Virus record (IMG/VR): IMGVR_UViG_2531839446_000008
DNA from: a virus
Taxonomy: Duplodnaviria > Heunggongvirae > Uroviricota > Caudoviricetes
Direction: 5' to 3' (one strand)
Length of the DNA stretch: 34,394 nt
Shown: one piece after another, positions 6,789-33,765 of the stretch
Position numbering within the stretch: position 1 is the stretch's first letter
Layout of the letters: every line of letters begins with the position of its first letter
Notes under the pieces: model-generated
The model's database searches: none
Seen by the model: the letters and a program-made list of their open reading frames with translations, nothing else
What the model was told of the DNA's origin: nothing
Program-made: the position numbers and the translations under genes

Positions 6789-7766
6789 TTACATTCCTCC
6801 CAAGGGATTAAACCTCACCGCATCCTGCAGGTAATCCGGCGCAAGATGGGCATAAATCATCGTTGTCTGAATCTTTGCGTGCCCCAGAATTTTCTGGAGC
6901 GTCAGAATATTACCGCCGTTCATCATGAAATGACTGGCGAAGGTGTGGCGCAGCGCATGAACAGCCTGGCCGTCAGGAACATCAGGTGCGACCGTTTTGA
7001 TGACATCGCGAACCAATGGATAATCCAGCGTTGGAAACACTAGTTTCCCGCCCCGTTTTTTGATCTTTTCAAACAGATTTTCGGAGATCGGGACAGTGCG
7101 GTTTTTACTGTTCTTCGTTTTTGAAAAAGTGATTCGACAATGAAGAACACGGCGCTGCTCCAGTGCCGCTACCTCGCCCCATCGCGCCCCGGTCGACAGA
7201 AGGATTTCGACAGCCAGCCGTTCATCGGGATTTTCAGCCAGTGCATCCAGCAACTGAACACATTCAGACTTACTCAGGTATCCCATTTCGCGCTCGTTAA
7301 CCTTCATTCCTTTAAGGCCTTGAACGGGGTTATCGTTAAGAAAATGGCCGGATGAGATGAGTGCGGTAAACATCGCGCTTAACGCCCCAATCTCTCGATT
7401 TATGGTGCTGGGCTGTATCCCCTGCTCTATCCTGGACACACGTAGCTCGGTGAGCATCGTTGTATTAAGTTTATGCACGCACGGGTCATCCATTGCCTCA
7501 CTCAAGCGCAGCAATTTAAGGCGCGTGTTATGCCCTGACTTCATTAGCTGGCCGTGGTATTTCCACCACAAGTCAATAAGCACTGACAGAGGACGGCGAT
7601 CAATAGAGTTTCCTTTCCACTCATTGTTATGCTGTTGCGCCAGCACCCACCGCTCATATAAAACTGCATCCGATTTCGTTTTAAATTTTTTACGAATGCG
7701 TTTGCCTTTACGCCCCTCCGGGCGCATGTCAAGAAGATACCCTCCCGGAATTGATTTTATGCTCAT
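6789..7766 (-). CDS. int: Phage integrase (tyrosine recombinase), P2 Int-like
   Basis: C-terminal catalytic region contains HALRHTFASHF and the LGHAKIQTTMIYAHL motif with the catalytic Tyr. Start set at the internal MSIKS Met, because the longer 375-aa ORF would overlap the repressor gene. Confidence 0.85.
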   Translation of the reverse strand: MSIKSIPGGYLLDMRPEGRKGKRIRKKFKTKSDAVLYERWVLAQQHNNEWKGNSIDRRPLSVLIDLWWKYHGQLMKSGHNTRLKLLRLSEAMDDPCVHKLNTTMLTELRVSRIEQGIQPSTINREIGALSAMFTALISSGHFLNDNPVQGLKGMKVNEREMGYLSKSECVQLLDALAENPDERLAVEILLSTGARWGEVAALEQRRVLHCRITFSKTKNSKNRTVPISENLFEKIKKRGGKLVFPTLDYPLVRDVIKTVAPDVPDGQAVHALRHTFASHFMMNGGNILTLQKILGHAKIQTTMIYAHLAPDYLQDAVRFNPLGGM

Positions 7767-7815
7767 TCGTGAAACCCCAGCGTTACAAGACCACCATGCC
7801 CCCAGCGTTCCATGA

Positions 7816-8127
7816 TTAGCCGGGCTGTGTACCAGTCTTGCGGGATTTTTGAGAAGACGATGTGTTTTCTGGCCCATCAGGGGAGAGAGAGGGACTGATC
7901 TGCCCAGCAGCCTCATTTGTTTTTCCCGTCATAAGCCATATAGTGTATTTTTCGAAATCCTTAGAATTAATTACGCGATCAACAACGCTTAAACCAACCT
8001 CTCTTTTACCGCTCTCATAATTCTTTATAGTTCCGAGATTTATCCCAGTAACATCTGCAAACTCAGCTTGAGTTAACCCTTCACTTTTCCGTATCTCTTT
8101 CAGTTTTTTTTCGTACCCACTTGACAT
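7816..8127 (-). CDS. C: P2 C-type immunity repressor (HTH)
   Basis: 103-aa ORF whose HTH (LTQAEFADVTGINLGTIKNYESG) and following YTIWLMTG motif resemble P2 repressor C as I recall it; divergent from the early operon. Confidence 0.75.
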   Translation of the reverse strand: MSSGYEKKLKEIRKSEGLTQAEFADVTGINLGTIKNYESGKREVGLSVVDRVINSKDFEKYTIWLMTGKTNEAAGQISPSLSPDGPENTSSSQKSRKTGTQPG

Positions 8128-10985: not shown

Positions 10986-11375
10986 ATGATTGACGCTCAT
11001 GACTTCACAAGATGGGTGCGCACACAGGACACCCGTCTGGCTCCCGTTCTTCAGGGATTATTTGATCTCTACATCCGTGGTCGTGACAACAGAGCACGCA
11101 CCACAAAACCAGAGAATGCAGACACCCTTTATTTCACAGTAGACGACTGCTACCGCGTGGACTTCACACCACACGGGCTGGCGTTGCACTGCCTGACACC
11201 ACACGGCGAATCACTACTGGCGTATTACGACTCCCCGGCCTCCGTATTTGCGGCAATGCTGGCGCATCGCACTGCTGGCGGGTGTGCCTCGCTGAGTGAA
11301 TACACCGCTGAATTTAACCGCCTTTCCACCCTCTTCTCGCAGGAGTGGCAGCGCGTGACGGGATACCAGCCATGA
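10986..11375 (+). CDS. Hypothetical protein immediately upstream of gpA
   Basis: 129-aa ORF; its stop overlaps the gpA start (ATGA). Confidence 0.4.
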   Translation: MIDAHDFTRWVRTQDTRLAPVLQGLFDLYIRGRDNRARTTKPENADTLYFTVDDCYRVDFTPHGLALHCLTPHGESLLAYYDSPASVFAAMLAHRTAGGCASLSEYTAEFNRLSTLFSQEWQRVTGYQP

Positions 11376-14212
11376 GTGAGTTTGCATGGAGCTGGAATGA
11401 ACCACGGCCAGCCATTGATCCAGCCAGATTTACGGAGCACAGGCAGGAAACTGAAACCGACCTGCAACGCGCCATCCGTTACTACCTTGAGGCGGACAAA
11501 AGGGCACAGAAAGAACAGGAAGCGAAGGAAGAAGCCTTTTTCGCACAATCCGCCATGGGTAAAAAACTCATGGCATCCCTTGAGGAAGCCGGACAGCGTG
11601 AAAAGCTGGCACAGAGCATCATCAGTAAGCGCCGGGCAACAGAACAAGACCCGGTAGCCCGTGCCTTTGCCACACTGAAGGCGCTTCCCGTTTATCTGCG
11701 AGAACCTCTGAGCCGCCACCTCTCTTTCCTGCGCAAGAAGCAGGAAGCCGATCGTCAGAAAGGCAAAAAGAGCTGGCAGGCGGAACGCTACGCGCGCGGA
11801 ACCCTGCGCAAAATATTCGAACGTCTGGACCGCACCGACCACCGCTGGCTGACACCGGGTTATCGCTCCCTTGCCGGACGCGAACGCCTGGACGATTTGC
11901 TTTACCTGCCGCAGCTCAACAAACACCAGATACAGACGCTGGCCACCATGACGGCGGCGATGTTCAGCAGCACCTTCGAAAAACTCTGCGATGGCTTTGG
12001 CGCGACTGATGGCGAACTGACCATGGATGTAACGCTGAAGGCGTATCAGATGCTGGCCCGCATGGCGTTACACCTGCACGCCATGCCTCCACATTATGAC
12101 GCACTGACAACAGACAAAGACCGGAGGAACGAACCGGACACGGAGCTGCTGCCGGGCGCAATCCTTCGCCTGACCTGTGCGGAATGGTGGAAACGCAAAC
12201 TGTGGCTGTTACGTTGCGAGTGGAGAGAAGAACAACTCCGCGCCGCCTGTCTGGTTTCCAGAAAAACATCACCCTATCTGAGCCAGGACGCGTTAAGCGA
12301 GTTTCGCGCACAGCGCGAGAAAACACGCGATTTCCTGAAAAGTTTCATGCTGGAAAATGAAGACGGGTTCACGATTGATCTCGAGACAGTGTATTACGCG
12401 GGAGTAAGTAACCCGGTTCACCGTAAGGCAGAAATGATGGCCACCATGAAGGGACTGGAACTTCTGGCCGAAGCCCGTGGCGACAGAGCTGTGTTTCTGA
12501 CTGTCACCTGCCCGTCAAAATACCACGCCACAACAGAGAACGGTCATCCGAACCCCAAATGGAACGGGGCCACCATGCGCGACTCCAGCGATTACCTGGT
12601 TAACACGTTTTTTGCGGCGGTCCGCAAGAAACTGAACCGCGACGGCCTGCGCTGGTATGGCATCCGCACGGTGGAGCCTCACCATGACGGCACTGTGCAC
12701 TGGCATATGATGGTCTTTGCTCATCCGGAAGAAATCGACAGCATCGTGGCCATCACCCGCGATATTGCCATTCAGGAAGACCGCCACGAGCTGGGCAATG
12801 ATATTACTCCGCGCTTTAAGGCGGAGTATGTCGACGGCTCAAAAGGCACGCCAACCAGCTACATCGCCACCTACATCGGAAAGAACCTGGACAGCCGCGC
12901 CGTGGATGGTATCGACCCGAAAACGGGCAAGCCACGCGTTGACCACGAAACCGGAAAATCAATGGCCGAGAGCGTGGAGCGCGCCATCGGCTGGGCGCGC
13001 CTTCACCGGGTCCGCCAGTTCCAGTTCTTTGGCATCCCCTCCCGTCAGGTGTGGCGTGAACTGCGCCGCCTTGCCAGCCAGATGGCACGCAACCCGGAAG
13101 GCCCGCAACGACTGAAGGATGACGCAATGGATGCAGTGCTCGCTGCCGCTGATGCCGGGTGTTTTGCCTCCTACATTGAAAAACAGGGCGGCGTACTTGT
13201 TCCACGCAAAGACTACCTGATTCGCACCGCCTACGACCTCGCAGATGAGCTGAACGATTACGGCGAACAGAGCGTACAGATTTACGGGATCTGGTCACCA
13301 CTCATCGGGGAGTCTTCCCGTGTGTGCACACATCCGGATAACTGGAAGCTGGTAAGACGTAAACCGGAAGCGGAAGACAGCGCCCGCGAAAATGGTTTTG
13401 ACCTTCAGGGCGGCCCTGCCGCCCCTTGGACTCGTGGCAATAACTGTCCCCGTGTACAGGAAACGGACAACAACGGGACAGAACAGCCGGAAGAACGGCC
13501 AGCACCGTGGCCGCAGCTCCCTGACGGCGTTGATGTGGATGAATGGATGCGCTCACTGAAACGGCACGAACGCCGGGCGCTGATGCGTTCGCTTCGTGAC
13601 AAACAGGCAAAAAACAGCAGTGATGAAATGCAGAGCTGGACACAGAGCCGCAAACAGCAGCGGCCTTTGCCTGATAACCACGAATTACTCGCTAAAGAAT
13701 GGCGGGAGTCTGCTGAATCTCTCGGCCTGCATATCGGTGAACAACAGATGCAGCACCTGTTACGGGGCGGCAGTCTGTACGTTGACGGCAGCATCATTGC
13801 ACCGCAGGGATTTGAAATTGTACGCAAACCGGATACCCGCCCGGACAGCCGAATCACGCAGCTCTGGCAGCGCCTGAGCCGTAATCATGGCGTAAGCAGC
13901 ACGGAGATCCGCCATAACCCGGTCGCCAGCTATCTGACACAGCTGGGGGCATCAGACCCTGAAGCCGCCGCACGCCTGGCATCCACACTTCAGCAGGACC
14001 AGAACACCATGAAAACACCCGTTACCGTGCTTTCTGACATGCTGCGCGCCATCCGCGACGCAGAGCACGCACAGAGAATCAGTGAAACCACTGAACGCGC
14101 CCGCCGCAAAGCAGACCTGCTGCGGGGTGGCCTGACCAGTGGAAACAAAAAACAGACAGAAACGGGACTCACGAATCCCGTAAATGAGCAAAAAACGCGC
14201 AGCGATATATGA
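11372..14212 (+). CDS. A: Rolling-circle replication initiator/endonuclease, P2 gpA-like
   Basis: HUH motif (VHWHMMVF) and Tyr-containing region typical of P2 A-family initiators; about 946 aa from the ATG at 11372, longer than I recall P2 gpA to be. Confidence 0.8.
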   Translation: MSEFAWSWNEPRPAIDPARFTEHRQETETDLQRAIRYYLEADKRAQKEQEAKEEAFFAQSAMGKKLMASLEEAGQREKLAQSIISKRRATEQDPVARAFATLKALPVYLREPLSRHLSFLRKKQEADRQKGKKSWQAERYARGTLRKIFERLDRTDHRWLTPGYRSLAGRERLDDLLYLPQLNKHQIQTLATMTAAMFSSTFEKLCDGFGATDGELTMDVTLKAYQMLARMALHLHAMPPHYDALTTDKDRRNEPDTELLPGAILRLTCAEWWKRKLWLLRCEWREEQLRAACLVSRKTSPYLSQDALSEFRAQREKTRDFLKSFMLENEDGFTIDLETVYYAGVSNPVHRKAEMMATMKGLELLAEARGDRAVFLTVTCPSKYHATTENGHPNPKWNGATMRDSSDYLVNTFFAAVRKKLNRDGLRWYGIRTVEPHHDGTVHWHMMVFAHPEEIDSIVAITRDIAIQEDRHELGNDITPRFKAEYVDGSKGTPTSYIATYIGKNLDSRAVDGIDPKTGKPRVDHETGKSMAESVERAIGWARLHRVRQFQFFGIPSRQVWRELRRLASQMARNPEGPQRLKDDAMDAVLAAADAGCFASYIEKQGGVLVPRKDYLIRTAYDLADELNDYGEQSVQIYGIWSPLIGESSRVCTHPDNWKLVRRKPEAEDSARENGFDLQGGPAAPWTRGNNCPRVQETDNNGTEQPEERPAPWPQLPDGVDVDEWMRSLKRHERRALMRSLRDKQAKNSSDEMQSWTQSRKQQRPLPDNHELLAKEWRESAESLGLHIGEQQMQHLLRGGSLYVDGSIIAPQGFEIVRKPDTRPDSRITQLWQRLSRNHGVSSTEIRHNPVASYLTQLGASDPEAAARLASTLQQDQNTMKTPVTVLSDMLRAIRDAEHAQRISETTERARRKADLLRGGLTSGNKKQTETGLTNPVNEQKTRSDI

Positions 14213-14288: not shown

Positions 14289-15248
14289 ATGAAAATTTGT
14301 ATCGACGACGGCTCCACCAACATCAAGCTGGCATGGACTGAGAACGGCGAACGCCGCAACGCCATCAGCCCGAACAGCTTCAAGTCGGAATGGTCTGCGC
14401 CGTTCGGTGGCACGCAGCCCGCGAACTACATGCTTGATGGCGTGCGCTATGGTTTTGATCCGGTCAGCGATCGCTTTGTCCAGACGACCGACACGCAATA
14501 CCAATACAGCGATGTGAATGTCATTGCCATTCATCACGCGCTGGTCAAATCAGGCATCACACCACAGGAGGTGGATGTGGTTGTCACCCTGCCACTGAGC
14601 GAGTATTTCGACACAAACGCACAGCCGGACATGGCCAACATCAACCGCAAAAAAGCGAACGTTATGCGCCCGGTGGAGTACCAGAACGGCGAAGCATTCA
14701 CTATCCGTAACGTGCGGGTTATGCCTGAATCCATTCCGGCTGGCTTTAAAGCACTGGCTGACATGAGTCCGTTTGAATCCCTGCTGATTGTGGATTTGGG
14801 CGGAACCACGCTGGATGTGGCAAAGGTTCAGGGGCAACTGGCAGGTATCAGCCAGGTGTTTTGCGATCCACACGTAGGCGTTTCTCTGATGGCCGATGCC
14901 GTGCTGTCGGTGATGGCCACTAACGGTATGCGCACCAGTCACCACATCGCCAATACCATTATCGAACATCGCTATGATGAAGCCTGGCTGCGCCAGCACA
15001 TCCACAATGACGCGCATTACGACAGCCTGATGGCGGTTATTCGTGAAAAGGAGGAAACACTGAAACAACGCGTGATCCGCGCGCTGGCGGTTTTTTCGGG
15101 TTACGGGCGGGTGATGGTTGTCGGTGGAGGGGCGGAGATTGTGGCACCCGCTATCCGCGAAGCCTGCGGAGTTAATGCGACTTTCATCGCGGACGGGGTG
15201 CCACAGTTTGCTCTGGTTAATGGGCTGTACGCAATGGACAAGGAGTAA
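14289..15248 (+). CDS. parM: Actin-like segregation ATPase ParM (StbA family)
   Basis: 319 aa; N-terminus MKICIDDGSTNIKLAW and internal motifs (VMPESIPAG, DLGGTTLD, VMVVGGGAE) closely parallel plasmid R1 ParM as I recall it. Confidence 0.85.
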   Translation: MKICIDDGSTNIKLAWTENGERRNAISPNSFKSEWSAPFGGTQPANYMLDGVRYGFDPVSDRFVQTTDTQYQYSDVNVIAIHHALVKSGITPQEVDVVVTLPLSEYFDTNAQPDMANINRKKANVMRPVEYQNGEAFTIRNVRVMPESIPAGFKALADMSPFESLLIVDLGGTTLDVAKVQGQLAGISQVFCDPHVGVSLMADAVLSVMATNGMRTSHHIANTIIEHRYDEAWLRQHIHNDAHYDSLMAVIREKEETLKQRVIRALAVFSGYGRVMVVGGGAEIVAPAIREACGVNATFIADGVPQFALVNGLYAMDKE

Positions 15249-15252
15249 ACCA

Positions 15253-15564
15253 ATGACGACTCCAACCAGACGGATAAGTTTCTATCTGAAGCCCACCGCC
15301 GTCAAGAACGAAGGAGAAGCATGCGCCTGGCTGGACAGCCTTACACCAGAAGCCCGCAAAAGCGGCCAACGCGTGGCTTTTCTGGCCGGGCTGGCACTTC
15401 TGAAAATGAATCCGGCAGAGGCTTACCGACTGGCTGCATGGGCTGATGATGAGGTGTTATCAGTGACACAAACCAAGACAGAACGCCCCGCGTCACAGCC
15501 AGTATCAACCGCACAGATAACCAGTCAGATGGCCGGAAATATCCGGGCGTTATTTCCTGAATAA
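15253..15564 (+). CDS. parR: ParR-like centromere-binding adaptor
   Basis: 103 aa from the ATG at 15253; the segment ISFYLKPTAV...AWLDSLTPEARKSGQRVAFLAGLALL parallels R1 ParR. The 15118 ORF is an out-of-context 5' extension overlapping parM. Confidence 0.7.
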   Translation: MTTPTRRISFYLKPTAVKNEGEACAWLDSLTPEARKSGQRVAFLAGLALLKMNPAEAYRLAAWADDEVLSVTQTKTERPASQPVSTAQITSQMAGNIRALFPE

Positions 15565-15848
15565 CATCAGGGCGTATTCGCCCTGCCACCAATCCCATAA
15601 CATAAAGAACGGGGTGCAAATCACTATACACCCCGTTCCAATACAAACCATCAGAAGATCTACACATCTTTCTCAAATGGCCAAGTAATCGAGCTGGTTC
15701 AGGAATAAGCATGCTGCCAACACAAGTGAAGGAGATAAAACTGTAGAACTGATCAATCGTTGGAAACAAGTATTGACAGTATGTTCGAGTAACCCAACTG
15801 GATAGATTTTATGCTGATTATCCATACAGTAAAAAAGTAAGGATACTC

Positions 15849-15877
15849 TTTGAATTACGCCAGCAAGAGTGGTAACA
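15849..15877 (+). promoter_or_regulatory. Putative sigma70 promoter for the AAA-S8 operon
   Basis: TTGAAT - 17 bp - TAACAT about 65 bp upstream of the ATG at 15943, in an AT-rich spacer. Confidence 0.3.
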
Positions 15878-15942
15878 TTAGTCAATGATTTTCATTAATG
15901 TAGTTACCAGCTTACACAAGCTGATGTTTTATTGGGGGTTTT

Positions 15943-17025
15943 ATGGTAAACGTGAGGGAGGATGAACTTTTCAAACTCATCGAGCAAGGCATCAAAGGCA
16001 ACGCAAATGCATTTACACTCCTATGCAGAAAGATGATTAACAACATCCGTAAAAATGATGAGGCTTTAGCTTCTAAGCTGGCTTCGTTAGTTGCTGAGGG
16101 AACAGTATTACGTGGGGCATCTAGTAAGGCTCCTATGCCTGTGGATGGAGACTCCAGACGAAACCTTTTGCAGGAAACATCTGTCAACGCAATTGTTGAA
16201 GAACCTGTATGGAATACGGATATCTCAAAGAAGCTGGAGTCAATTGTTAACGAAAGAGAGAATGCGGTTTCTTTGTTCAAAGCTGGTCTTGAACCTGTGA
16301 AGACGGTTTTACTTTCTGGCCCGCCAGGCGTAGGCAAAACAATGTCCGCACATTGGCTTGCTGCAAAGTTAAATTTACCTCTTTTAACATTGGATCTCTC
16401 ATCTGTAATGAGTTCTCTTTTGGGAAAAACAGGTAATAATATTAAATCCGTTATGGATTATGCCAAAGAGAAACCATGTGTCCTTTTGCTTGATGAATTT
16501 GATGCTGTTGCAAAAAGACGTGATGATGACAGGGACGTTGGAGAATTAAAACGTTTAGTTACTGTACTCCTACAGACCATAGATGAGTGGCCAGCGACCT
16601 CGCTTCTTGTTGCTGCGACTAATCACCCTGATATCTTAGATCCGGCTGTTTGGCGTCGATTTGAGCACATCCTTAAATTTAATATGCCATCAGTAGAACT
16701 GATAGATAGATATTTAGTCAATCATAATATTGAACCTGAACTATCTAAAAAACTTGCACCATTATTAGATGGCATGTCCTTTGCCATCATTAACCGTATT
16801 TTGAATTTCTCCAAAAAGAATGAGGTACTTAGAAATATTCCATTTGAAAGCTCATTAATAGAAGCCGTAATTACGGAGAGGGTTTCATTGGATGAGTTTA
16901 GCGATAATGATCTCAATATAATTAAATATCATTTTGACGGTTTTTCAAATAGGAAGATAGCTGAATTAGTTGGTGTTTCACATCCAACAATCGCGAATAA
17001 ATTACAAAAGTGGGGGATTAAATGA
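15943..17025 (+). CDS. Classic-clade AAA+ ATPase with C-terminal HTH
   Basis: Walker A (GPPGVGKT), Walker B (LLLDEFD), sensor/Arg-finger region (ATNHPDILDPAVWRRF); C-terminal HTH-like tail (NRKIAELVGVSHPTIANKLQKW). AT-rich. Confidence 0.8.
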   Translation: MVNVREDELFKLIEQGIKGNANAFTLLCRKMINNIRKNDEALASKLASLVAEGTVLRGASSKAPMPVDGDSRRNLLQETSVNAIVEEPVWNTDISKKLESIVNERENAVSLFKAGLEPVKTVLLSGPPGVGKTMSAHWLAAKLNLPLLTLDLSSVMSSLLGKTGNNIKSVMDYAKEKPCVLLLDEFDAVAKRRDDDRDVGELKRLVTVLLQTIDEWPATSLLVAATNHPDILDPAVWRRFEHILKFNMPSVELIDRYLVNHNIEPELSKKLAPLLDGMSFAIINRILNFSKKNEVLRNIPFESSLIEAVITERVSLDEFSDNDLNIIKYHFDGFSNRKIAELVGVSHPTIANKLQKWGIK

Positions 17026-19226
17026 TGGAAAGGAACTTACTTTTAGGTAACGGTCATGTTCTGACAAAAAAGGAACCTTTGCCTAAAGGAAGGGATGGTA
17101 AGCGCTATCCCTATACTCTTGAAGAAGTAAGGGAGCATTTAAACCCAGAGATTGATACTTTACTCTCACGCTTTCGCAGTTTGGATGATGCGGCTAAGCC
17201 AAGGGGGGAGAGTGTATTCAATTTAACTTTACACCCAGCGTTTTTGGGTAAAAGCTACTTTCCGGAAGGATTGCTTAGAGCGACAGGTTTACGGGATGTC
17301 GGCAGCCGTCAGGTAATCATTCGCCCACGGAAAGCGGCACGTCAGTGCGATCAGAATAAGGACTTAGTAACGGCGCAACTGTTTGTTAGCGGTGATGATG
17401 ATGCCGTTATAAGATTTAAGGAAATTTTAAATTCCCCTACAGCTCCGAAGGGCGTACAAAAGGATTTGATCGAAATTGAAAGTGTTAGCTTTTTTGAAGG
17501 AAAAGAGAGAGCACGCAATTTTGAGCATGCGAAAAGTGATTTGATAAAATTTGAAGTGGTTCTTCATGCTGGGGTTGAAGACGATGATATCGTTAAAGCC
17601 TATATTAGCTATGCGGCACAATATGATGTCTCTGTTGATTACAAAAGTAGAATCCAAGTTGGTGGGCTGACTTTCATCGTTGCACACGCGCGACCTGAAG
17701 ATATGAAAAAAACACTCGATTTTTCATTAATCCGCGTTGTGCGGCCGATGCCGTCTCTCAGGTGTACTCAGCCGAACATTGTCAGAAAGTTATCTAATAT
17801 AGTTACACCGGAGCTCCCTAATTCTAAAGCTGTTCTTGAATCCGAACGTATTGCCATTTTTGATGGTGGCTTGGGGACAGCTGACTTGAGTAATTGGGTT
17901 ACGGAATACGTGTATCCAGACACCAAAGAAACAAGCGGATTATTATTGCAGCACGGTAATGAAGTGACATCCACTTTCTTATTCGGACGTGTCGAGGAAA
18001 ATGCACCTTCTTTTAAAAGACCGTTTATGAATGTAGATCATTATAGAGTTCTTTCACCGACATCAGGTGACAATGGCAATTGGGATTTATTTGATGTCCT
18101 TAAGAAAATACAGTCCGTTCTTGATAGTGGTGACTATAAGTTCGCTAATCTAAGTATTGGTCCTCATCTTCCAATTGGTGATGATGAGGTTCATGTATGG
18201 ACTGCTGTTTTAGACCAAATCTGTGCTAAGCATGGGATATTACTTACTGTTGCTGTTGGGAATGATGGCAATGAGGACGGTGATGCAGCGAGAATACAAC
18301 CTCCTTCCGATATGGTAAACGCGCTAGCGATTGGTGCTGCTGATCGTAGCGGTGAAAAATGGGGGCGGGCACCATATAGCTGTATTGGGCCAGGCAGAAG
18401 CCCCGGATTCGTTAAACCTGATGGTGTTATTTTTGGTGGAAGCGACGACGAGCCTTTTTACACTTACAACCCTCTGCTTGGTTCTATAGTTGGAGTTCAA
18501 GGAACCAGTTATGCCTCTCCATTAGCATTGAGAACGGCCGCTGGAGTTGCGGCTCTATCAGGAACTCCATTGAACACCATTGCATTGAAAGCGTTGCTTG
18601 TTCATCATGCTGAAACATCAAGAAAATATTCGCGTGAACATATCGGTTGGGGACGGTTTAGTGAGGATCCTAACGTTTTAATCGATTGTCCAAATGATAC
18701 TGCTACAGTAATTTACTATGGTTCATTAGCAAAAAATAAATATTTAAGGGCACCGATCCCATTCCCTGATGTTCCCTTTGACGAAGCATTTGAGCTTACC
18801 GCTACTTTATGCATTCAAACCCCAGTAGATCCTGAACATTCAGTAAACTATACAAGGGCCGGTATGCAGGTAACTTTCCGCCCAAGATTCGGCCTTGACG
18901 ATACCGATACAGATGATTTCTTTGGTCAAAAAAGCCAGTATAAGACTGAAAGGGAGTGTAGGAGTGAAGGTCATAAGTGGGAAACTTGTTTGCACAGAAG
19001 CAAAAAGTTCAGTGCTGATACATTATTAAGCGATCCAGTTTTTGATATACGGTATCATGCCCGAGATTCTTCGCGCCATGTTAAGGGAGTTTCAGCCCCT
19101 GATATGCAATATGCGATGGTAATAAGCGTAAGGGTAAAAGACTTTGATTTATATAATGTTATTCGCCAGCGATATACAATTCTGAATCCTATTCAACTGC
19201 GCACACAAATTTCTCTCGACACGTAA
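17022..19226 (+). CDS. Large S8 (subtilisin-like) serine peptidase, no signal peptide
   Basis: 734 aa; Asp (IAIFDGG), His (QHGNEVT) and Ser (GTSYASP) motifs in subtilase order; about 270 aa N-terminal and about 200 aa C-terminal extra regions; start overlaps the ATPase stop (ATGA). Confidence 0.8.
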   Translation: MMERNLLLGNGHVLTKKEPLPKGRDGKRYPYTLEEVREHLNPEIDTLLSRFRSLDDAAKPRGESVFNLTLHPAFLGKSYFPEGLLRATGLRDVGSRQVIIRPRKAARQCDQNKDLVTAQLFVSGDDDAVIRFKEILNSPTAPKGVQKDLIEIESVSFFEGKERARNFEHAKSDLIKFEVVLHAGVEDDDIVKAYISYAAQYDVSVDYKSRIQVGGLTFIVAHARPEDMKKTLDFSLIRVVRPMPSLRCTQPNIVRKLSNIVTPELPNSKAVLESERIAIFDGGLGTADLSNWVTEYVYPDTKETSGLLLQHGNEVTSTFLFGRVEENAPSFKRPFMNVDHYRVLSPTSGDNGNWDLFDVLKKIQSVLDSGDYKFANLSIGPHLPIGDDEVHVWTAVLDQICAKHGILLTVAVGNDGNEDGDAARIQPPSDMVNALAIGAADRSGEKWGRAPYSCIGPGRSPGFVKPDGVIFGGSDDEPFYTYNPLLGSIVGVQGTSYASPLALRTAAGVAALSGTPLNTIALKALLVHHAETSRKYSREHIGWGRFSEDPNVLIDCPNDTATVIYYGSLAKNKYLRAPIPFPDVPFDEAFELTATLCIQTPVDPEHSVNYTRAGMQVTFRPRFGLDDTDTDDFFGQKSQYKTERECRSEGHKWETCLHRSKKFSADTLLSDPVFDIRYHARDSSRHVKGVSAPDMQYAMVISVRVKDFDLYNVIRQRYTILNPIQLRTQISLDT

Positions 19227-19233
19227 TTTTTAT

Positions 19234-19256
19234 GGCCGCGAAAGCGGCCTTTTTTC
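19234..19256 (+). terminator. Rho-independent terminator after the S8 peptidase gene
   Basis: ggccgc-gaaa-gcggcc hairpin followed by tttttt. Confidence 0.6.
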
Positions 19257-19679
19257 TGTAATTTTTTTATGAATTTACATGCACGATAGTGCACAAATTT
19301 GCACAATTTTTTTGAACGAATTTTTGCCCTTCTGGCCCGCGTGGCGGCTGGATCCGTCAGGGATCCGTGCGTGCACAAAAAAACGCGCTTTTTCTGCGCG
19401 CAGGTGACGGGGGAACAGCCCGCGTTTCAGGGGGTAAATAGCGTTCCCTTAACGATGTCGCAGCGACACGACAGAATGGCCGTATTTCTCACGCTGAGCG
19501 TGAAAAATACGTGAGGGATTCTGATTTGATGGGGTGAAAGGTAAGGCCGTCAAAATCGCACTGAGGCGGCGAGAACATGCAGTCAACGCGGTGGGATTGC
19601 GTAAGAGTCTGACCGTCGATGGTGGCGATAAACTGGAAGGCGTCGTGAAATTATCTGACTGATACAGGAGCTGGAGAGT

Positions 19680-19704
19680 CGGGGCATAAATTTTTTATGC
19701 CCCG
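19680..19704. terminator. Hairpin terminator downstream of Q (possibly bidirectional)
   Basis: cggggcataaa-ttttttatgccccg perfect hairpin with an A/T run in the loop, just 3' of the minus-strand Q gene. Confidence 0.5.
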
Positions 19705-19730
19705 GCGAAGCAGCAGACAAGCGAAGCGCG

Positions 19731-20777
19731 TCAGAATGTGGGCTGGATGTCTAACAGTGCGTAAGGGTTAAAGCGGATCACCTCTTCGCCAAGCCAGTCA
19801 TTGATGTGCTTCATGGCCTCCATGACGGGCATCAGCTCGTTAATTGCGTAAACCCGCGCGGCCTTCTCCACATCACCAAACGCACTTTTTTCACCCGGCA
19901 TCGCCCCCATCAGTTGCGGCGGAACGCGGTGCGCAGCCAGCACATCATCACGGGATGCCGCCTTAACATTCATGAACTCATCCTTTGCGGTGATCTGCTG
20001 GAACGGCAAAATTTGCACCCCCTCTTTGCCCCCGTTGGGCGCATGAATGAGCACGTTTTTAAACGCACCACCACCACGCGCACCCTGTAGCGTTTCTTTC
20101 AGGGAGTCCATGCTTTCGCGGTTTACCTGCGCTGCACCGATGTAGATGATGCACCCGGCGTGGGATCCGTTGTCGTAATACAGTTTTCTGAACATGTCCG
20201 CCGAATGAGACAGGCTGGCCGAGAGTAATGCGCCGAGATATTCCGGCATGCCGTAGATTTCCTGGTTAATGTCAGGATTCATCAGGTGACACACTTTGCC
20301 AGGACGAAACTGAAACGCATCCTTGCCATCCTGCACATACCACCATGATTCAAGATCGCTTCCGCGTCGCATGTATTTCGCCAGGGCGTGCCGTAATTTA
20401 AGCGGTTCGCCGAGCATATTGCTTCGAAGCTCAAGGAATGCGTTACCGAACACAAACCAGTCCAGCGCCAGCGCCGAGAAATCCTGCCGGGAAAGCAGCG
20501 GGTGCGGGATGTAGCAACCGAGCAATACATTGCGCTTAAAGTAAAGCGCAGACTGATGCCAGGACGTTTGCCGGGCAGCTCTTGCCAGACCGTACCAGTC
20601 CACTGGGGTTTCATACCACCGCCCGTTATCAGCACAGTACATATTGTCCAGCAGGTCATGCCCGGTCAGGCGATAAGGACCATCAAATGTGAATGCACTG
20701 AGCGATGATTCTTTCCTGAGCGCATCAGCGAGATCAATGCGTGAACTCATGCGCACTTTTTTATTTTTTCTGCTCAT
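19731..20777 (-). CDS. Q: Portal protein, P2 gpQ-like
   Basis: 348-aa ORF immediately downstream of the terminase gene on the minus strand; size and position match P2 Q. Confidence 0.8.
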   Translation of the reverse strand: MSRKNKKVRMSSRIDLADALRKESSLSAFTFDGPYRLTGHDLLDNMYCADNGRWYETPVDWYGLARAARQTSWHQSALYFKRNVLLGCYIPHPLLSRQDFSALALDWFVFGNAFLELRSNMLGEPLKLRHALAKYMRRGSDLESWWYVQDGKDAFQFRPGKVCHLMNPDINQEIYGMPEYLGALLSASLSHSADMFRKLYYDNGSHAGCIIYIGAAQVNRESMDSLKETLQGARGGGAFKNVLIHAPNGGKEGVQILPFQQITAKDEFMNVKAASRDDVLAAHRVPPQLMGAMPGEKSAFGDVEKAARVYAINELMPVMEAMKHINDWLGEEVIRFNPYALLDIQPTF

Positions 20778-22528
20778 CAGAACTCCATAACCGTGAAACG
20801 CTCGTTTTCTCCTTCGCCGCCAATCGGTTCGTTAATGACAGCAAGCATGGTTGCCCACGCAAGGTCGCCGTGGCTGATCCCCCTCGCTCGGTCCGTTTCG
20901 TAAGTGATAAAGCCGCCCGGTGTTTTCACCTTACGCACGGCGTTAAAGGCCGCGACCAGCTCGCGTTCGGCGCGATCGTATTCCCACCGCCCGGCACGCA
21001 TTATTTGCAGCATTTTCAGTACCAGCGACCGTTTTGATGACAGCGTGAAGGTGTACGGAATAGCGGCAGGGAAAAACCGTTTCACTATCTGATAAACAGC
21101 CTCCCCGTTCCCGCCCGTCACATCAATGCCGATGTGTTCCACGTTGTAGCGACACGTGAACTCTTCAATGACTCTGGCCTGTTCTTCAAACTCCAGCCCC
21201 TGAACGCGTCGCGTCTCCACCGTTCGAAAACGGCCACCAGGAACAGACGGAGGAACCACCACGGACACAGCGCCGCTGTCGCCGTTACCACTGCTGCCGT
21301 TTGCGTCATACCCAATCCATACCGGACGATTCCCCATCGGGCGGGGAGCAAAAGGTTTCCAGTCTTTCCAGTCGTCGTATCCGTCAACACCACAGCCAAT
21401 CAGGATATTCAGGTTAAATGCCGATTCCCCTTCGCGGACAAATTCACACATATAGAGATTGAGGAACTCGTCTTCGGTGTTTTCATCACGAATTTCGTCG
21501 ATATCGGTGTGTTTCCAGCCATGATTAACCACATCTTCCAGCGTGACAATTTGCCGCCACGTCCGGTCAGGGCAGATAAGCCCGTTATGCAGCGTTTTCC
21601 AGTCCACAGAAAAACGCTGGCGTTTATGCGTGGCCTTTTTCTCGTTCCAGCGGTCGCCGTTCCAGTAGGCGTATGCCTCGTGCGTTTCGGTGGATGGCGT
21701 GGAGAAGTAGGTGCGCCGCAGTCCGCTGAGGGTTGCCATAGCGCCAGCCACCTTGCGCAGTTCTGCAAAGCGACTGACCCAGAAAAATTCATCAAAATAA
21801 AAATTGCCCGTATAGGACTGTGCCGACGCAGCAGAAGTGCCGAGAAAATGCAGCTCTGCGCCGTTGGAGAGGATGATTTTATCGCCCCCTTTCAGCTCCA
21901 CATCAACTTCAGCCGCGGCCTTCTGAATAATGCTTTTAAACTGGAACGCCTGACGACGCGACGCAGACAAAAAAATCTGGTTACGCTGGTAAGGTTGCGC
22001 CACATCGTCACGCAGCGCCATCAGCAGCGCTTCCTGTGCAAAATACCAGGTCGCCCCAATCTGTCGGGATTTCAGGATCATCCTGTTACGTATCCCTGCT
22101 TCCCTGCAAAGGGTCAGGGAGTCAAACCAGCCCCGCTGATGCCACTCCAGCCTGCTGATGATTTTTTCCCGCAGTGCGGCAATCTGTTCCGGCGTGAAAT
22201 GATTTTTAAGCTTTTTCGCCCGGCCTTTCTTTCCTGTGGCCGTCGCATCCGGCTGGCCATCATGCAGTTTTTTAAGCTGCCGGGTCAGCAGGTCTATTTC
22301 CTTGAAGTCACCACCTGTTTTATTCTGTTTTTCAGTGAGCTGGATGAGGCGCGCATCGATGGACTGCGTGACACGCTGCACGGGTGGCGTTTCATCCCAC
22401 TGGTCGCGTTTTTTCCACGCATAAATCGTGTTCGGGTTTATTCCCATCAGACGTGATATTTCTGCGGGCGGATAACCCTGCCAGTAAAGTTGCCGCGCAC
22501 GCTGGCGCACAAAAGCGTCCTGAATCAT
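20777..22528 (-). CDS. P: Terminase large (ATPase) subunit, P2 gpP-like
   Basis: 583 aa; N-terminus MIQDAFVRQRARQLYWQGY... typical of P2 P; divergent from O. Confidence 0.85.
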   Translation of the reverse strand: MIQDAFVRQRARQLYWQGYPPAEISRLMGINPNTIYAWKKRDQWDETPPVQRVTQSIDARLIQLTEKQNKTGGDFKEIDLLTRQLKKLHDGQPDATATGKKGRAKKLKNHFTPEQIAALREKIISRLEWHQRGWFDSLTLCREAGIRNRMILKSRQIGATWYFAQEALLMALRDDVAQPYQRNQIFLSASRRQAFQFKSIIQKAAAEVDVELKGGDKIILSNGAELHFLGTSAASAQSYTGNFYFDEFFWVSRFAELRKVAGAMATLSGLRRTYFSTPSTETHEAYAYWNGDRWNEKKATHKRQRFSVDWKTLHNGLICPDRTWRQIVTLEDVVNHGWKHTDIDEIRDENTEDEFLNLYMCEFVREGESAFNLNILIGCGVDGYDDWKDWKPFAPRPMGNRPVWIGYDANGSSGNGDSGAVSVVVPPSVPGGRFRTVETRRVQGLEFEEQARVIEEFTCRYNVEHIGIDVTGGNGEAVYQIVKRFFPAAIPYTFTLSSKRSLVLKMLQIMRAGRWEYDRAERELVAAFNAVRKVKTPGGFITYETDRARGISHGDLAWATMLAVINEPIGGEGENERFTVMEF

Positions 22529-30624: not shown

Positions 30625-31225
30625 TTCACTGTTACCGCCATCAGCCAGCAATTTCATGCATTGTGCCGAAGCTGTCGGAACGCGCATTACAGACATTCCG
30701 GTAAACCTCAACACGCTGTGGTCGCCGGACACCTGCCCGGTGCATCTGCTGCCTTATCTCGCCTGGGCATTTTCCGTTGACCGCTGGGATCGCAACTGGC
30801 CGGAAGAGACAAAGCGACAGGTGATTCGTGATGCATGGCTGATACACCGACACAAAGGGACCATCAGCGCACTGCGAAGAGCCGTGGAGCCTCTCGGCTA
30901 CCTGATTGAAGTAAAGGAGTGGTGGCAACTCAATGAGGAGCCTGGAACATTTCGCATTGTTGTCGGAGTACTTGATCAGGGCATCACCGATGAAATGTAT
31001 CAGGAACTTGAGCGCCTTATTGCGGATGCAAAACCAGTAAGTCGCCATCTGACAGGGCTGGCGATCAGTCTGAGTGTGAACGGAAAGATTTTCGTTGGTA
31101 CGGGATGCTATTACGGCGACGCCCTGACGGTTTATCCCTACACCCCGGAGTCCATTGTTGTCGAAGGGGATTATTTCCCGGCCCCGGCCATTCATTTAAT
31201 TGATAACCTGAGAGTAAACGCATGA
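30617..31225 (+). CDS. I: Baseplate protein, P2 gpI-like
   Basis: ATG at 30617 (MSNSLLPPSAS...); overlaps the J stop. Confidence 0.75.
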   Translation: MSNSLLPPSASNFMHCAEAVGTRITDIPVNLNTLWSPDTCPVHLLPYLAWAFSVDRWDRNWPEETKRQVIRDAWLIHRHKGTISALRRAVEPLGYLIEVKEWWQLNEEPGTFRIVVGVLDQGITDEMYQELERLIADAKPVSRHLTGLAISLSVNGKIFVGTGCYYGDALTVYPYTPESIVVEGDYFPAPAIHLIDNLRVNA

Positions 31226-32727: not shown

Positions 32728-32747
32728 TTTTATTAAGGGTGATTTAT

Positions 32748-33191
32748 ATGAACGAATATGTTTATAGCGCAAGGCATAATGCTTTTTTCCCTGTGGATAT
32801 GATTGATAAATATAAATCAGAGGGATGGGATTTATCAGATGCTAAAGAGGTGAATCAAAATATTATCAGTGAATTTATGGCTGAACCGCCACAAGGAAAA
32901 ATCCGTATTGCCGGAGGTGATGGGCTGCCTGCGTGGGCAGATATTCCTCCACCCACGCATGAAGAACTTATTGAAATTACTGAATCAGAAAGACAGCTAC
33001 TAATTAACCAGGCCAACGAATACATGAACAGTAAGCAATGGCCCGGCAAAGCCGCTATTGGTCGTCTGAAAGGTGATGAACTGGCGCAATATAATTTGTG
33101 GCTGGATTATCTGGACGCACTGGAGCTGATCGATACTTCCGGTGCACCAGATATTGAATGGCCTACGCCTCCGGCAGTTCAGGCCAGATGA
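32748..33191 (+). CDS. Tail fibre assembly chaperone (Tfa), current orientation
   Basis: ATG at 32748 (MNEYVYSARHNAFFP...); follows the H variable region. Confidence 0.7.
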   Translation: MNEYVYSARHNAFFPVDMIDKYKSEGWDLSDAKEVNQNIISEFMAEPPQGKIRIAGGDGLPAWADIPPPTHEELIEITESERQLLINQANEYMNSKQWPGKAAIGRLKGDELAQYNLWLDYLDALELIDTSGAPDIEWPTPPAVQAR

Positions 33192-33765
33192 CATCCGGCG
33201 CGGTGCTGGTATCTGTTGCCGTCACCGCGTCAATGTAATCCAGCACAGCGTTAAGTCTGGTTGTTTCTGCCTGCGTCAGTTTACGTCCGGCCTGCAATTT
33301 CAGTTGAATCAGACTGATGGAAGCCATTGCTGCATCAATCAGTGACTGGCGCTGTGCTTCTGCCGCGTCTACTGCGGCGCTATGCTGTGCCTCGGTATCC
33401 GTCACCCATTTCTTACCATCCCATTCATCGTATGGCGTTAACGGGGCGATAGTGGTTGTATTTTCGGGATAGTCGCCCGGTGCTGTGATTTCTTTGGCAT
33501 CTCCCGTTTCGGTGTTATAGACAATTTCACCGCGATGGTCCGGCACATATTCCCATGAGTTTAAATCTATCGAACGGCAGATAGCATAACCCGCCTTATG
33601 TGTGCCAGGGGCATCTAAACAGGAATATGCAGGGATACCGACGCCAACAGCAAGATATTCATTTGAAGTGGAAATATATTCCCGGGTTTCACTATCATAG
33701 TTATACACTGTAATATTCCCTGCTTTGGTGGCGATAATCTCGCTATTTAATATGGCGTTATCCAT
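33163..33765 (-). CDS. Alternative tail fibre assembly chaperone (Tfa'), inverted orientation
   Basis: 200-aa ORF; its C-terminus converges on and overlaps the plus-strand Tfa C-terminus, and both end with a similar ...IDTS/ATDTSxAPDI(E/V)WP motif. Confidence 0.65.
   Translation of the reverse strand: MDNAILNSEIIATKAGNITVYNYDSETREYISTSNEYLAVGVGIPAYSCLDAPGTHKAGYAICRSIDLNSWEYVPDHRGEIVYNTETGDAKEITAPGDYPENTTTIAPLTPYDEWDGKKWVTDTEAQHSAAVDAAEAQRQSLIDAAMASISLIQLKLQAGRKLTQAETTRLNAVLDYIDAVTATDTSTAPDVIWPELPEA

What the first reader, a model, noticed from the sequence alone, without database searches (positions are those of the whole stretch)
15565..19256. AAA+ ATPase plus cytoplasmic S8 peptidase operon in the P2 gpA-to-Q defence hotspot: candidate uncharacterised anti-phage system
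Between the replication gene and cos/Q, where P2-like phages are known to carry exchangeable anti-phage cargo (tin/old in P2), there is an AT-rich two-gene cassette with its own promoter-like spacer and terminator. Gene 1 is a classic-clade AAA+ ATPase, the clade that usually unfolds or remodels proteins. Gene 2 is a 734-aa subtilase with D/H/S motifs in order, no signal peptide, and large extra N- and C-terminal domains. The two genes overlap by ATGA, implying co-translation and a stoichiometric complex. An unfoldase paired with an intracellular protease suggests a proteolytic abortive-infection or effector-activation mechanism. I cannot confidently match the pair to a named defence family.
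Basis: partly seen in the sequence, partly recalled or inferred. Interest (0 to 1): 0.9.

Follow-up and report, generated by a model that had tools for sequence, protein, structure and literature searches.

The report
Known IetAS defence pair in P2 hotspot
The two genes are real and intact, but they are the already named IetAS ATPase/protease toxin-antitoxin defence system, and this exact protein pair was catalogued in the P2 prophage cargo hotspot in 2022, so the finding is correct as a description but not new.

Summary
An AT-rich 3.7-kb cassette (41% GC against 54% in the prophage) lies between stbB and the portal gene Q of a P2-like E. coli prophage. It encodes a 360-aa classic-clade AAA+ ATPase and a 734-aa cytoplasmic S8 subtilase. 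Their genes overlap by ATGA, and a strong intrinsic terminator follows.

The claim that the system is uncharacterised does not hold. PADLOC profiles match both proteins over their full length as IetA (3.6e-89) and IetS (6.6e-41). NCBIfam's best hits are the anti-phage IteA/IteS models. Rousset et al. 2022 (Table S5B, system 7, 400 of 18,150 loci) list these identical sequences as P2 gpA–gpQ hotspot cargo, annotated "ietAS (Gao et al, 2020)".

IetAS was first described as a pTiC58 plasmid-stabilising toxin–antitoxin pair, with the protease as toxin and the ATPase as antitoxin. It was later shown to act against phages by abortive infection. Its molecular mechanism is still unknown.

This copy belongs to a divergent clade: 24–37% (IetS) and 34–40% (IetA) identity to the two reference pairs compared here.

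New minor points:
- IetS is built like a pro-subtilase that keeps its propeptide-type modules.
- A TGGTAA/TTACCA inverted repeat is conserved over the predicted ietA promoter.

Novelty: already known. Interest: low.

The parts
15565..15942 (+). Cassette leader/spacer. It holds two hairpins just after stbB (15568-15585 and 15606-15639) and the left recombination junction (15564-15606). The AT-rich ietA upstream region follows.
   Evidence: Sequence. Hairpins. Junctions against sibling prophages. Identity with Enterobacter phage phiT5282H starts at window 15682.
15850..15878 (+). Candidate sigma-70 promoter of ietAS: -35 TTGAAT (15850-15855), a 17-nt spacer, then an extended -10 TGgTAACAT (15870-15878).
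   Evidence: Read. The Plesiomonas locus L002 has the same geometry (TTGTAT-N17-TGgTAAGAT), and both blocks are conserved in the alignment. It scores below the 9-of-12 threshold of the generic scan. It is an inference.
15870..15909 (.). Inverted repeat TGGTAA (15870-15875) ... TTACCA (15904-15909) spanning the predicted -10 and transcription start. It is a candidate operator for the C-terminal HTH of IetA.
   Evidence: The motif occupies the same positions (-73 and -39/-40 from the ATG) in the window, in L002 (IetA 85% identical) and in L003 (IetA 50% identical). Background is 0.08-0.12 hexamer hits per 150 bp. Its function is inferred.
15943..17025 (+). ietA: 360-aa classic-clade AAA+ ATPase, the antitoxin/regulator component. 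It has an N-terminal domain of about 100 aa, an AAA+ module at 110-260 and a C-terminal HTH at 335-359.
   Evidence: PADLOC IetA PDLC02196 at 3.6e-89, covering 7-356 of 360. NCBIfam IteA_antiphage 253 bits against a cut-off of 510. PF00004 and HTH_50. Motifs and the conserved pore-loop position S-[L/F]-L-G-K-T. Identical to WP_000248600.1.
17022..19226 (+). ietS: 734-aa cytoplasmic S8 subtilase, the toxin/effector. It has two N-terminal beta-alpha-beta-beta-alpha-beta modules (about 60-160 and 175-245), a linker (250-270), a catalytic domain (272-545) with D281, H311, N414 and S496, and a C-terminal beta-sandwich (555-734).
   Evidence: PADLOC IetS PDLC02197 at 6.6e-41, covering 22-707. NCBIfam IteS 116 bits against a cut-off of 900. 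Invariant triad. AF2 model with pLDDT 84.7. Fold matches to KP-43, ProN-Tk-SP, pro-subtilisin E and the PCSK9 prodomain. Identical to WP_000970615.1.
19234..19256 (+). Intrinsic terminator of the ietAS operon (GGCCGCGAAAGCGGCC followed by TTTTTTCTGT).
   Evidence: and the sequence.
19279..19280 (.). Right junction of the exchangeable cargo slot. Backbone homology to sibling P2-like prophages resumes here and runs towards cos and Q.
   Evidence: blastn against L010 and L011. H81 starts at query position 4992, which is window 19280.

Best explanation
The cassette is an intact copy of the named two-gene system IetAS. ietA encodes an AAA+ ATPase and ietS an S8 serine protease. It is carried as exchangeable cargo in the gpA-to-Q hotspot of a P2-like E. 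coli prophage.

Most likely working model, with shown and inferred steps marked:
- IetS is a cytoplasmic protease toxin. This is shown for the pTiC58 and SGI1 homologues.
- In the uninfected lysogen, IetA keeps IetS harmless using ATP. The antitoxin role is shown for homologues. ATP dependence is suggested because ietA mutants of ietHAS could not be cloned.
- IetA probably represses its own promoter through its C-terminal HTH (inferred here).
- When a competing phage infects, a phage protein or process disables or diverts IetA. A trigger gene is shown only for the B. cereus system.
- Free IetS then cleaves cellular proteins, and the cell stops growing before the invader completes its cycle. 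An abortive-infection phenotype is shown for the B. cereus homologue and a protease requirement for homologues. The substrates are unknown.

The same toxin-antitoxin logic could also penalise loss of the prophage.
For: Family assignment:
- Full-length PADLOC hits to IetA and IetS, and NCBIfam best hits to anti-phage IteA/IteS.
- The sequences are identical to system 7, 'ietAS (Gao et al, 2020)', 400 loci, in Rousset 2022 Table S5B. The four hotspot genes carry the same accessions as in Table S5A.
- All ATPase and protease catalytic residues are intact and invariant.
- The AAA-to-S8 gene order with a 1-11 nt overlap is conserved in six other loci from lambdoid prophage, primase island, ICE/IME, chromosome and plasmids.

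Hotspot:
- The parM-stbB...Q backbone is present in 1447 of 5426 genomes.
- It carries alternative cargo (Ea22-like, HTH+PIN, DUF3800, DUF4760, Phd/Doc). Only about 31 genomes carry ietAS.
- The junctions are sharp.

Function, from the literature:
- Toxin-antitoxin behaviour of pTiC58 IetAS and of SGI1 SgiAT (PMC5006074; PMC13069673, citing Yamamoto 2009).
- Anti-phage activity and the protease requirement (PMC13069673, citing Gao 2020).
- Abortive infection and a phage trigger gene for the B. cereus system (10.1101/2022.08.27.505566).
- An E. coli ECOR52 ietAS was cloned and tested (10.1101/2022.08.21.504612).

Structure: IetS has a pro-subtilase-like architecture.
Against: - This clade is divergent. 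It scores far below the NCBIfam equivalog cut-offs (253 against 510; 116 against 900).
- It is only 34% (IetA) and 24% (IetS) identical to a PGAP-named IteA/IteS pair, and 40% and 37% identical to an Agrobacterium plasmid pair.
- No experiment on this exact sequence was found. The ECOR52 system gave only limited protection on its own, and I could not establish that it belongs to this clade.
- The molecular mechanism of IetAS is stated to be unknown as of 2026 (PMC13069673). How IetA neutralises IetS, what triggers release and what IetS cleaves are all inferred.
- Neither primary paper (Gao 2020, Yamamoto 2009) could be read here.
Confidence: 0.88

Rival explanations
1. The main role here is addiction or stabilisation, not anti-phage defence. 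IetAS would act as a post-segregational-killing module that prevents loss of the prophage, or of an episomal form kept by the neighbouring ParM/StbB partition genes.
For: IetAS was discovered as a plasmid-stabilising toxin-antitoxin system, and its SGI1 homologue SgiAT stabilises an integrated element (PMC5006074; PMC13069673). The cassette lies directly downstream of parM-stbB. Rousset et al. suggest these partition genes may allow plasmid-like maintenance. The window's IetS is closer to Rhizobiales plasmid IetS (about 37%) than to the PGAP-named anti-phage IteS (24%).
Against: The same cassette occurs without parM-stbB. Enterobacter phage phiT5282H has it next to gpA, the 'AAA/HTH_50 + Peptidase_S8' arrangement occurs alone in Rousset Table S5A, and a Plesiomonas lambdoid prophage carries it in its lysis region. 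All 32 E. coli copies are chromosomal, and near-identity DNA search finds none on plasmids. The slot is occupied elsewhere by other defence-type or toxin-antitoxin cargo. The two roles are not mutually exclusive.
Confidence: 0.25
2. Activator model. IetS is a latent zymogen held off by its own N-terminal propeptide-like modules. On sensing infection, the IetA hexamer unfolds or extracts that module and thereby switches the protease on.
For: IetS keeps two N-terminal beta-alpha-beta-beta-alpha-beta modules, one with the I9 prodomain fold, followed by a flexible linker with conserved arginines. IetA has a conserved pore-loop-type motif and belongs to the classic unfoldase clade.
Against: Published genetics say IetS homologues are toxic without IetA, and that ietA-mutant constructs cannot be cloned (PMC5006074; PMC13069673). 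That fits a neutraliser, not an obligatory activator. I could not check from the model whether the propeptide-like module occupies the active site, because no coordinates were available.
Confidence: 0.15
3. One reading: a previously undescribed anti-phage system with no named family.
For: RefSeq labels the genes only 'AAA family ATPase' and 'S8 family peptidase'. PHROGs lists both families as 'unknown function'. The NCBIfam equivalog cut-offs are not reached.
Against: Full-length PADLOC IetA/IetS hits. Explicit listing of the identical sequences as ietAS in the P2 hotspot catalogue. Collinear homology to named IteA/IteS.
Confidence: 0.02
4. A secreted-protease maturation or housekeeping proteolysis operon unrelated to conflict between mobile elements.
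For: Many S8 subtilases with propeptides and C-terminal beta-domains are secreted enzymes. The top fold matches (KP-43, Tk-SP, fervidolysin) are of this kind.
Against: There is no signal peptide or hydrophobic segment. Four of the five contexts examined by genomic neighbourhood are in mobile elements. The plasmid copies sit next to a Tn3 transposase, and next to an integrase and a Shedu nuclease gene, respectively. No secretion genes are nearby.
Confidence: 0.01

Closest known systems
IetAS in the P2 gpA-gpQ hotspot (Rousset et al. 2022, Table S5B system 7)
   Same: Identical protein sequences and accessions (WP_000248600 and WP_000970615), the same locus type, and the same neighbouring StbA and Plasmid_stab_B genes.
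   Different: Nothing. This is the same entity. Section 10 of that paper does not mention ietAS among the systems reported as active, so this allele appears to be catalogued but untested there.
IetA/IetS of Agrobacterium pTiC58 (Yamamoto et al. 2009) and the SGI1 homologue SgiAT (Huguet et al. 2016)
   Same: AAA+ ATPase gene followed by an S8 protease gene. The protease is the toxin and the ATPase the antitoxin. Both are carried on mobile elements. An Agrobacterium plasmid pair aligns over the full length.
   Different: Identity to the Agrobacterium plasmid pair (pAtG3_79a, not pTiC58 itself) is only about 40% (IetA) and 37% (IetS). Those systems were studied for plasmid or island stability, not phage defence. 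The pTiC58 sequence itself was not available for comparison.
Anti-phage IetAS of Gao et al. 2020 (NCBIfam IteA NF042959 / IteS NF042956)
   Same: Same two-gene architecture, and collinear domains from the N-terminal region through the catalytic domain into the C-terminal domain.
   Different: Identity is 34% and 24%, and scores are far below the equivalog cut-offs. It is a different clade, so phage specificity and trigger need not be shared.
B. cereus m1293 ietAS (Stokar-Avihail et al.) and E. coli ietHAS (PMC13069673)
   Same: Same family. These systems supply the evidence for abortive infection, the protease requirement and the antitoxin role of IetA.
   Different: The B. cereus system is triggered by SPbeta yosG, and nothing is known of a trigger for this clade. 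ietHAS needs an extra SNF2 helicase gene, which is absent here. The cassette holds only two genes.
Pro-subtilases that keep their prodomain (Pro-Tk-SP, pro-subtilisin E, PCSK9, CspB)
   Same: Fold-level resemblance: an I9-type beta-alpha-beta-beta-alpha-beta module ahead of the S8 core and a C-terminal beta-domain.
   Different: Sequence identity is 13-22%. Most of those enzymes are secreted or spore enzymes, with no AAA+ partner. IetS has two N-terminal modules and is cytoplasmic.

Membership tests
IetAS | Two-gene operon with the AAA+ ATPase gene immediately upstream of the S8 peptidase gene, on the same strand and coupled | tested here: met
   ORFs 15943-17025 and 17022-19226 with an ATGA overlap. 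The same order and a 1-11 nt overlap occur in L002-L006, L008 and L009. The named iteA/iteS pair (L009) overlaps by 32 nt as annotated.
IetAS | IetA profile match over the full length | tested here: met
   PADLOC PDLC02196 at 3.6e-89, protein 7-356 against profile 5-370 of 374. Three further IetA models also hit.
IetAS | IetS profile match over the full length, not only the S8 core | tested here: met
   PADLOC PDLC02197 at 6.6e-41, protein 22-707 against profile 24-718 of 749. BLASTP to named IteS is collinear over residues 32-663.
IetAS | Reaches the NCBIfam equivalog cut-offs for anti-phage IteA and IteS (same function as the validated pair) | tested here: not met
   IteA scores 253 bits against a cut-off of 510. 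IteS scores 116 bits against 900. It is a family member but from a divergent clade, not an equivalog.
IetAS | Intact ATPase motifs and Asp/His/Ser triad | tested here: met
   Walker A K132, Walker B D184/E185, N227 and R238/R239. D281, H311, N414 and S496 are invariant in 54 sequences.
IetAS | Protease is toxic and the ATPase neutralises it | not testable with these tools
   Known only for the pTiC58, SGI1 and ietHAS homologues (PMC5006074, PMC13069673).
IetAS | Protects against phage infection | not testable with these tools
   Shown for homologues (PMC13069673 citing Gao 2020; 10.1101/2022.08.27.505566). E. coli ECOR52 ietAS gave limited activity alone (10.1101/2022.08.21.504612). Identity of that allele to this one is not established.
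P2 gpA-to-Q hotspot cargo | Lies between the replication endonuclease gpA and portal Q of a P2-like prophage | tested here: met
   Phage_GPA at 11345-14212, portal at 19731-20777 (-) and terminase at 20777-22528 (-). The locus definition is in PMC9122126.
P2 gpA-to-Q hotspot cargo | Conserved flanks with different cargo in sibling prophages | tested here: met
   The backbone is in 1447 genomes and only about 31 carry ietAS. Alternative cargo is listed. Junctions lie at 15564/15606 and 19279/19280.
Self-compartmentalised AAA+ proteases (Lon/FtsH/ClpXP type) | The unfoldase ring docks on or is fused to a chambered protease and feeds it substrate | not testable with these tools
   The AAA+ module resembles the p97/PAN/FtsH modules. 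The partner is a monomer-type subtilase fold. No complex model could be built here. Published genetics favour a neutraliser role.

The most novel reading that the evidence does not exclude
The P2-hotspot clade of IetAS may be a self-regulated zymogen switch. It is only 24-37% (IetS) and 34-40% (IetA) identical to the two reference pairs compared here. In this reading, IetA binds a conserved TGGTAA/TTACCA operator to set operon dosage. It also uses its pore loops on the retained propeptide-like modules of IetS to keep the protease latent or to re-inactivate it. Its main selective benefit would be retention of the P2-like element, possibly in an episomal ParM/StbB-partitioned state, with phage exclusion as a by-product. 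That would give the first mechanistic picture for a family whose mode of action is still unknown.
Probability: 0.15. Interest if true: 0.45.

Novelty: already known. Interest (0 to 1): 0.15.

Why it matters
As a discovery it does not matter much. The system has a name, is in PADLOC and NCBIfam, and this exact allele was already catalogued in the P2 hotspot.

Some residual value remains:
- RefSeq still labels the genes generically, so they can be re-annotated.
- The mechanism of IetAS is unsolved. The features noted here give concrete, testable handles for whoever works on it. They are a pro-subtilase-like IetS with two propeptide-type modules, a conserved pore-loop position in IetA, and a conserved inverted repeat over the predicted promoter.
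- The allele sits in the well-studied EPEC strain E2348/69, which makes experiments easy.

Tried and rejected
- Primary papers. I tried to read Gao et al. 2020 (DOI and PMC7985843) and Yamamoto et al. 2009 (PMC2704731). Neither is held, so both are cited through secondary papers.
- Later P2/P4 hotspot paper. The 2026 paper (PMC13586616) does not mention iet in its text, and no supplements are held.
- Solved structures. A sequence search of the PDB found only generic subtilisins for IetS and p97-type ATPases for IetA. A literature search for an IetAS structure found none.
- Plasmids. Near-identity DNA search found no copy.
- ECOR52. It is not among the complete genomes that carry the cassette, so the tested E. 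coli allele could not be linked to this one.
- Candidate operator. I first considered the palindrome CAGCTTacacAAGCTG (15908-15923). It is not conserved in the Plesiomonas homologue, so I dropped it in favour of the TGGTAA/TTACCA repeat.
- Promoter scan. The generic sigma-70 scan found no + strand promoter in the spacer.
- Window identity. I first assumed the window was E2348/69 itself. That was wrong outside the cassette (99.4% over 14289-20200; best complete genome 93% coverage at 97.6%).
- Minus-strand ORFs in the spacer (15341..15769 and 15673..15885) were dismissed. The window/L002 alignment there contains indels of 8, 8, 2 and 1 nt, none a multiple of three.
- Tail-fibre region. A search for inverted repeats of at least 20 bp found none.


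Full report
**1. The observation**

The described features are all present. ORF 15943..17025 (+, 360 aa) and ORF 17022..19226 (+, 734 aa) overlap by ATGA.

The first protein carries a PF00004 AAA domain (9.6e-31) and a C-terminal HTH_50. Its nearest solved relatives are p97/Cdc48, VAT, Rix7 and PAN, which belong to the classic AAA clade. Its motifs are intact:
- Walker A G126PPGVGKT
- Walker B VLLLDE185
- sensor-1 N227
- R238/R239

A conserved S-[L/F]-L-G-K-T segment occupies the pore-loop-1 position.

The second protein has a Peptidase_S8 domain at residues 288-544. D281, H311, N414 and S496 are invariant across 54 homologues that are 41-85% identical. It has no hydrophobic N-terminus.

Other points from the finding:
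- **Composition.** The cassette is 41% GC against 54% for the rest of the prophage.
- **Terminator.** A strong intrinsic terminator follows ietS at 19234-19256.
- **Promoter.** This part of the finding is weaker. The generic scan finds no + strand promoter in the spacer. A TTGAAT-N17-TGgTAACAT extended -10 candidate (15850-15878) is conserved in a Plesiomonas homologue.

**2. The location**

The window is a P2-like prophage of E. coli, with chromosomal genes (selO among those annotated under the match) to its left. Its layout is as follows:
- integrase at 6789-7916 (-) and an HTH repressor
- early genes
- gpA at 11345-14212
- ParM at 14289-15248 and StbB at 15253-15564
- the cassette
- portal Q and terminase P on the minus strand
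- capsid, lysis and tail genes

The cassette itself is 100% identical to EPEC O127:H6 E2348/69, and it occurs in 32 of 5426 complete E. coli genomes, always on the chromosome. The window as a whole is not E2348/69. It is a mosaic relative, and the best complete genome covers 93% of it at 97.6% identity.

The slot is a true exchange hotspot:
- The parM-stbB...Q backbone is present in 1447 genomes.
- In different genomes it carries Ea22-like, HTH+PIN, DUF3800, DUF4760 or Phd/Doc cargo in the same position. Only about 31 genomes carry this cassette.
- Homology to two sibling prophages stops at 15564/15606 and resumes at 19279/19280.

Rousset et al. 2022 defined this gpA-gpQ hotspot. They also note that about a quarter of P2-like phages carry a partition system there.

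**3. What it is**

PADLOC profiles match both proteins over their full length:
- IetA PDLC02196: 3.6e-89, residues 7-356
- IetS PDLC02197: 6.6e-41, residues 22-707

NCBIfam's best hits are 'anti-phage ATPase IteA' and 'S8 family anti-phage peptidase IteS', although both score far below the equivalog cut-offs (253 against 510; 116 against 900).

The decisive evidence comes from the supplementary tables of Rousset et al. 2022:
[quoted passage not shown] RefSeq assigns the same four accessions in E2348/69.
- Table S5B lists system 7, 'Peptidase_S8 | AAA', with 400 occurrences. Its representative sequences are identical to the two window proteins, and the comment reads 'ietAS (Gao et al, 2020)'.

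The pair is therefore named, and its presence in this very hotspot is published.

**4. The family and its contexts**

IetS homologues of constant length (about 730 aa) are abundant in Proteobacteria. 873 had E <= 1e-10 among the capped set of candidates.

In every locus inspected, an AAA gene of about 360-405 codons lies directly upstream of the protease gene, and the two overlap by a few bases. Most of these contexts are in mobile elements:
- the lysis region of a Plesiomonas lambdoid prophage (85% identity)
- a Pseudomonas island with a Toprim/DUF927 primase
- an Enterobacter integrase-adjacent element carrying TraI and ArdC
- an Alteromonas chromosomal islet
- an Agrobacterium plasmid, next to a caspase-family gene and Tn3
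- an Acidovorax plasmid where PGAP names the genes iteA/iteS and a Shedu nuclease gene is adjacent

Isolated or deposited phages also carry homologues:
- Enterobacter phage phiT5282H (98.5% amino-acid identity, without parM-stbB)
- Pf filamentous phage PfAC08 (37.5%)
- Paenibacillus larvae phages (25%)

PHROGs has full-length families for both proteins, each labelled 'unknown function'.

Pairwise identities place the window pair in its own clade:
- 40% and 37% to the Agrobacterium plasmid pair
- 34% and 24% to the named IteA/IteS pair

**5. How it probably works**

From the literature:
- IetAS was first described as a plasmid-stabilising toxin-antitoxin system of pTiC58, with the serine protease as toxin and the ATPase as antitoxin. 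SgiAT of SGI1 is a functional homologue (PMC13069673; PMC5006074).
- Gao et al. 2020 showed anti-phage activity that requires the protease (as cited in PMC13069673).
- The B. cereus system behaves as an abortive-infection system and becomes toxic when the SPbeta gene yosG is expressed (10.1101/2022.08.27.505566).
- In the E. coli ietHAS variant, a mutated ietA could not be cloned.
- An ECOR52 ietAS gave limited protection alone and synergised with Zorya II against T3.
- The 2026 NAR paper states that the anti-phage mechanism remains unknown.

My working model follows from this. IetA neutralises IetS in an ATP-dependent way. A phage cue lifts that neutralisation. IetS then cleaves cellular targets and aborts the infection. 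The same logic can also stabilise the element that carries it.

An AlphaFold2 model of IetS built on 54 homologues is confident (pLDDT 84.7, pTM 0.88). It shows the following parts:
- two N-terminal beta-alpha-beta-beta-alpha-beta modules (about 60-160 and 175-245)
- a poorly ordered linker (250-270), in a stretch (238-266) that holds invariant R238, R241, R247, R255 and P266
- the S8 core (272-545)
- a C-terminal beta-sandwich (555-734) with its own invariant residues, including D603, H606, N609-T611, W653 and E654

Upstream of ietA, TGGTAA and its inverse TTACCA lie at -73 and -39/-40 from the start codon. The same positions hold in the window, in the Plesiomonas locus, and in a Pseudomonas locus whose IetA is only 50% identical. 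Background is about 0.1 hexamer hits per 150 bp. The left copy coincides with the predicted extended -10. I read this as an operator for the IetA HTH, that is, antitoxin-style autoregulation. It is untested.

**7. Rivals**

- **Addiction or stabilisation as the main role.** This is plausible, given the history of the family, the ParM/StbB neighbours and the closer identity to the plasmid clade. The cassette also travels without partition genes, however, and in E. coli it is always chromosomal.
- **Activator model.** It fits the structure but not the genetics.
- **A novel unnamed system.** Excluded.
- **A secreted-protease operon.** Excluded.

**8. Verdict**

The novelty category is 'already known': a catalogued allele from a divergent clade of a named system. 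Interest is low (0.15). The residual value lies in re-annotating the genes and in the testable mechanistic handles for a family whose mode of action is unsolved.

Noticed in passing
window 14289-15564: ParM/StbA (319 aa; StbA_N 1.6e-82 and ParM C-terminal domain 6e-68) and a StbB-like Plasmid_stab_B protein (103 aa) lie between gpA and the ietAS cassette. This is a plasmid-type actin partition module inside an integrated P2-like prophage. Rousset et al. note that about a quarter of P2-like phages carry it and may be maintained as plasmids. The backbone occurs in 1447 of 5426 complete E. coli genomes.
   Followed up: partly
window 15870-15875 and 15904-15909; L002 and L003 at the same offsets from ietA: A TGGTAA / TTACCA inverted repeat sits at -73 and -39/-40 from the ietA start. 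It is conserved even where IetA is only 50% identical, and it overlaps a predicted extended -10 promoter. It is a candidate autoregulatory operator for the IetA C-terminal HTH.
   Followed up: partly
[not shown]
   Followed up: no
window 31222-34298: A tail fibre gene (501 aa) and a Caudo_TAP chaperone lie on the + strand. An oppositely oriented second chaperone (33163-33765) and a Collar-domain fibre segment (33765-34298) follow. This is the layout of an invertible host-range segment. In E2348/69 a recombinase gene follows just beyond the window end. No inverted repeat of at least 20 bp was detected.
   Followed up: partly
whole window against NC_011601.1: The ietAS cassette is 100% identical to E2348/69, but the surrounding prophage is mosaic: 99.4% over 14289-20200, a different integrase/immunity arm, and a best complete genome at only 93% coverage and 97.6% identity. 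The cassette sequence is better conserved than its carrier, consistent with recent horizontal exchange of the slot.
   Followed up: partly
window 11345-14212: The gpA replication endonuclease ORF is long (940-955 aa). The Phage_GPA domain covers only residues 194-518, which leaves a C-terminal extension of about 430 aa with no Pfam match.
   Followed up: no
L009 (Acidovorax plasmid p1-T1) and L008 (Agrobacterium pAtG3_79a): On plasmids, IetAS-type pairs sit next to other conflict genes. The named iteA/iteS pair has a Shedu nuclease and an integrase beside it. The Agrobacterium pair has a caspase-family protease and a Tn3 transposase beside it.
   Followed up: no
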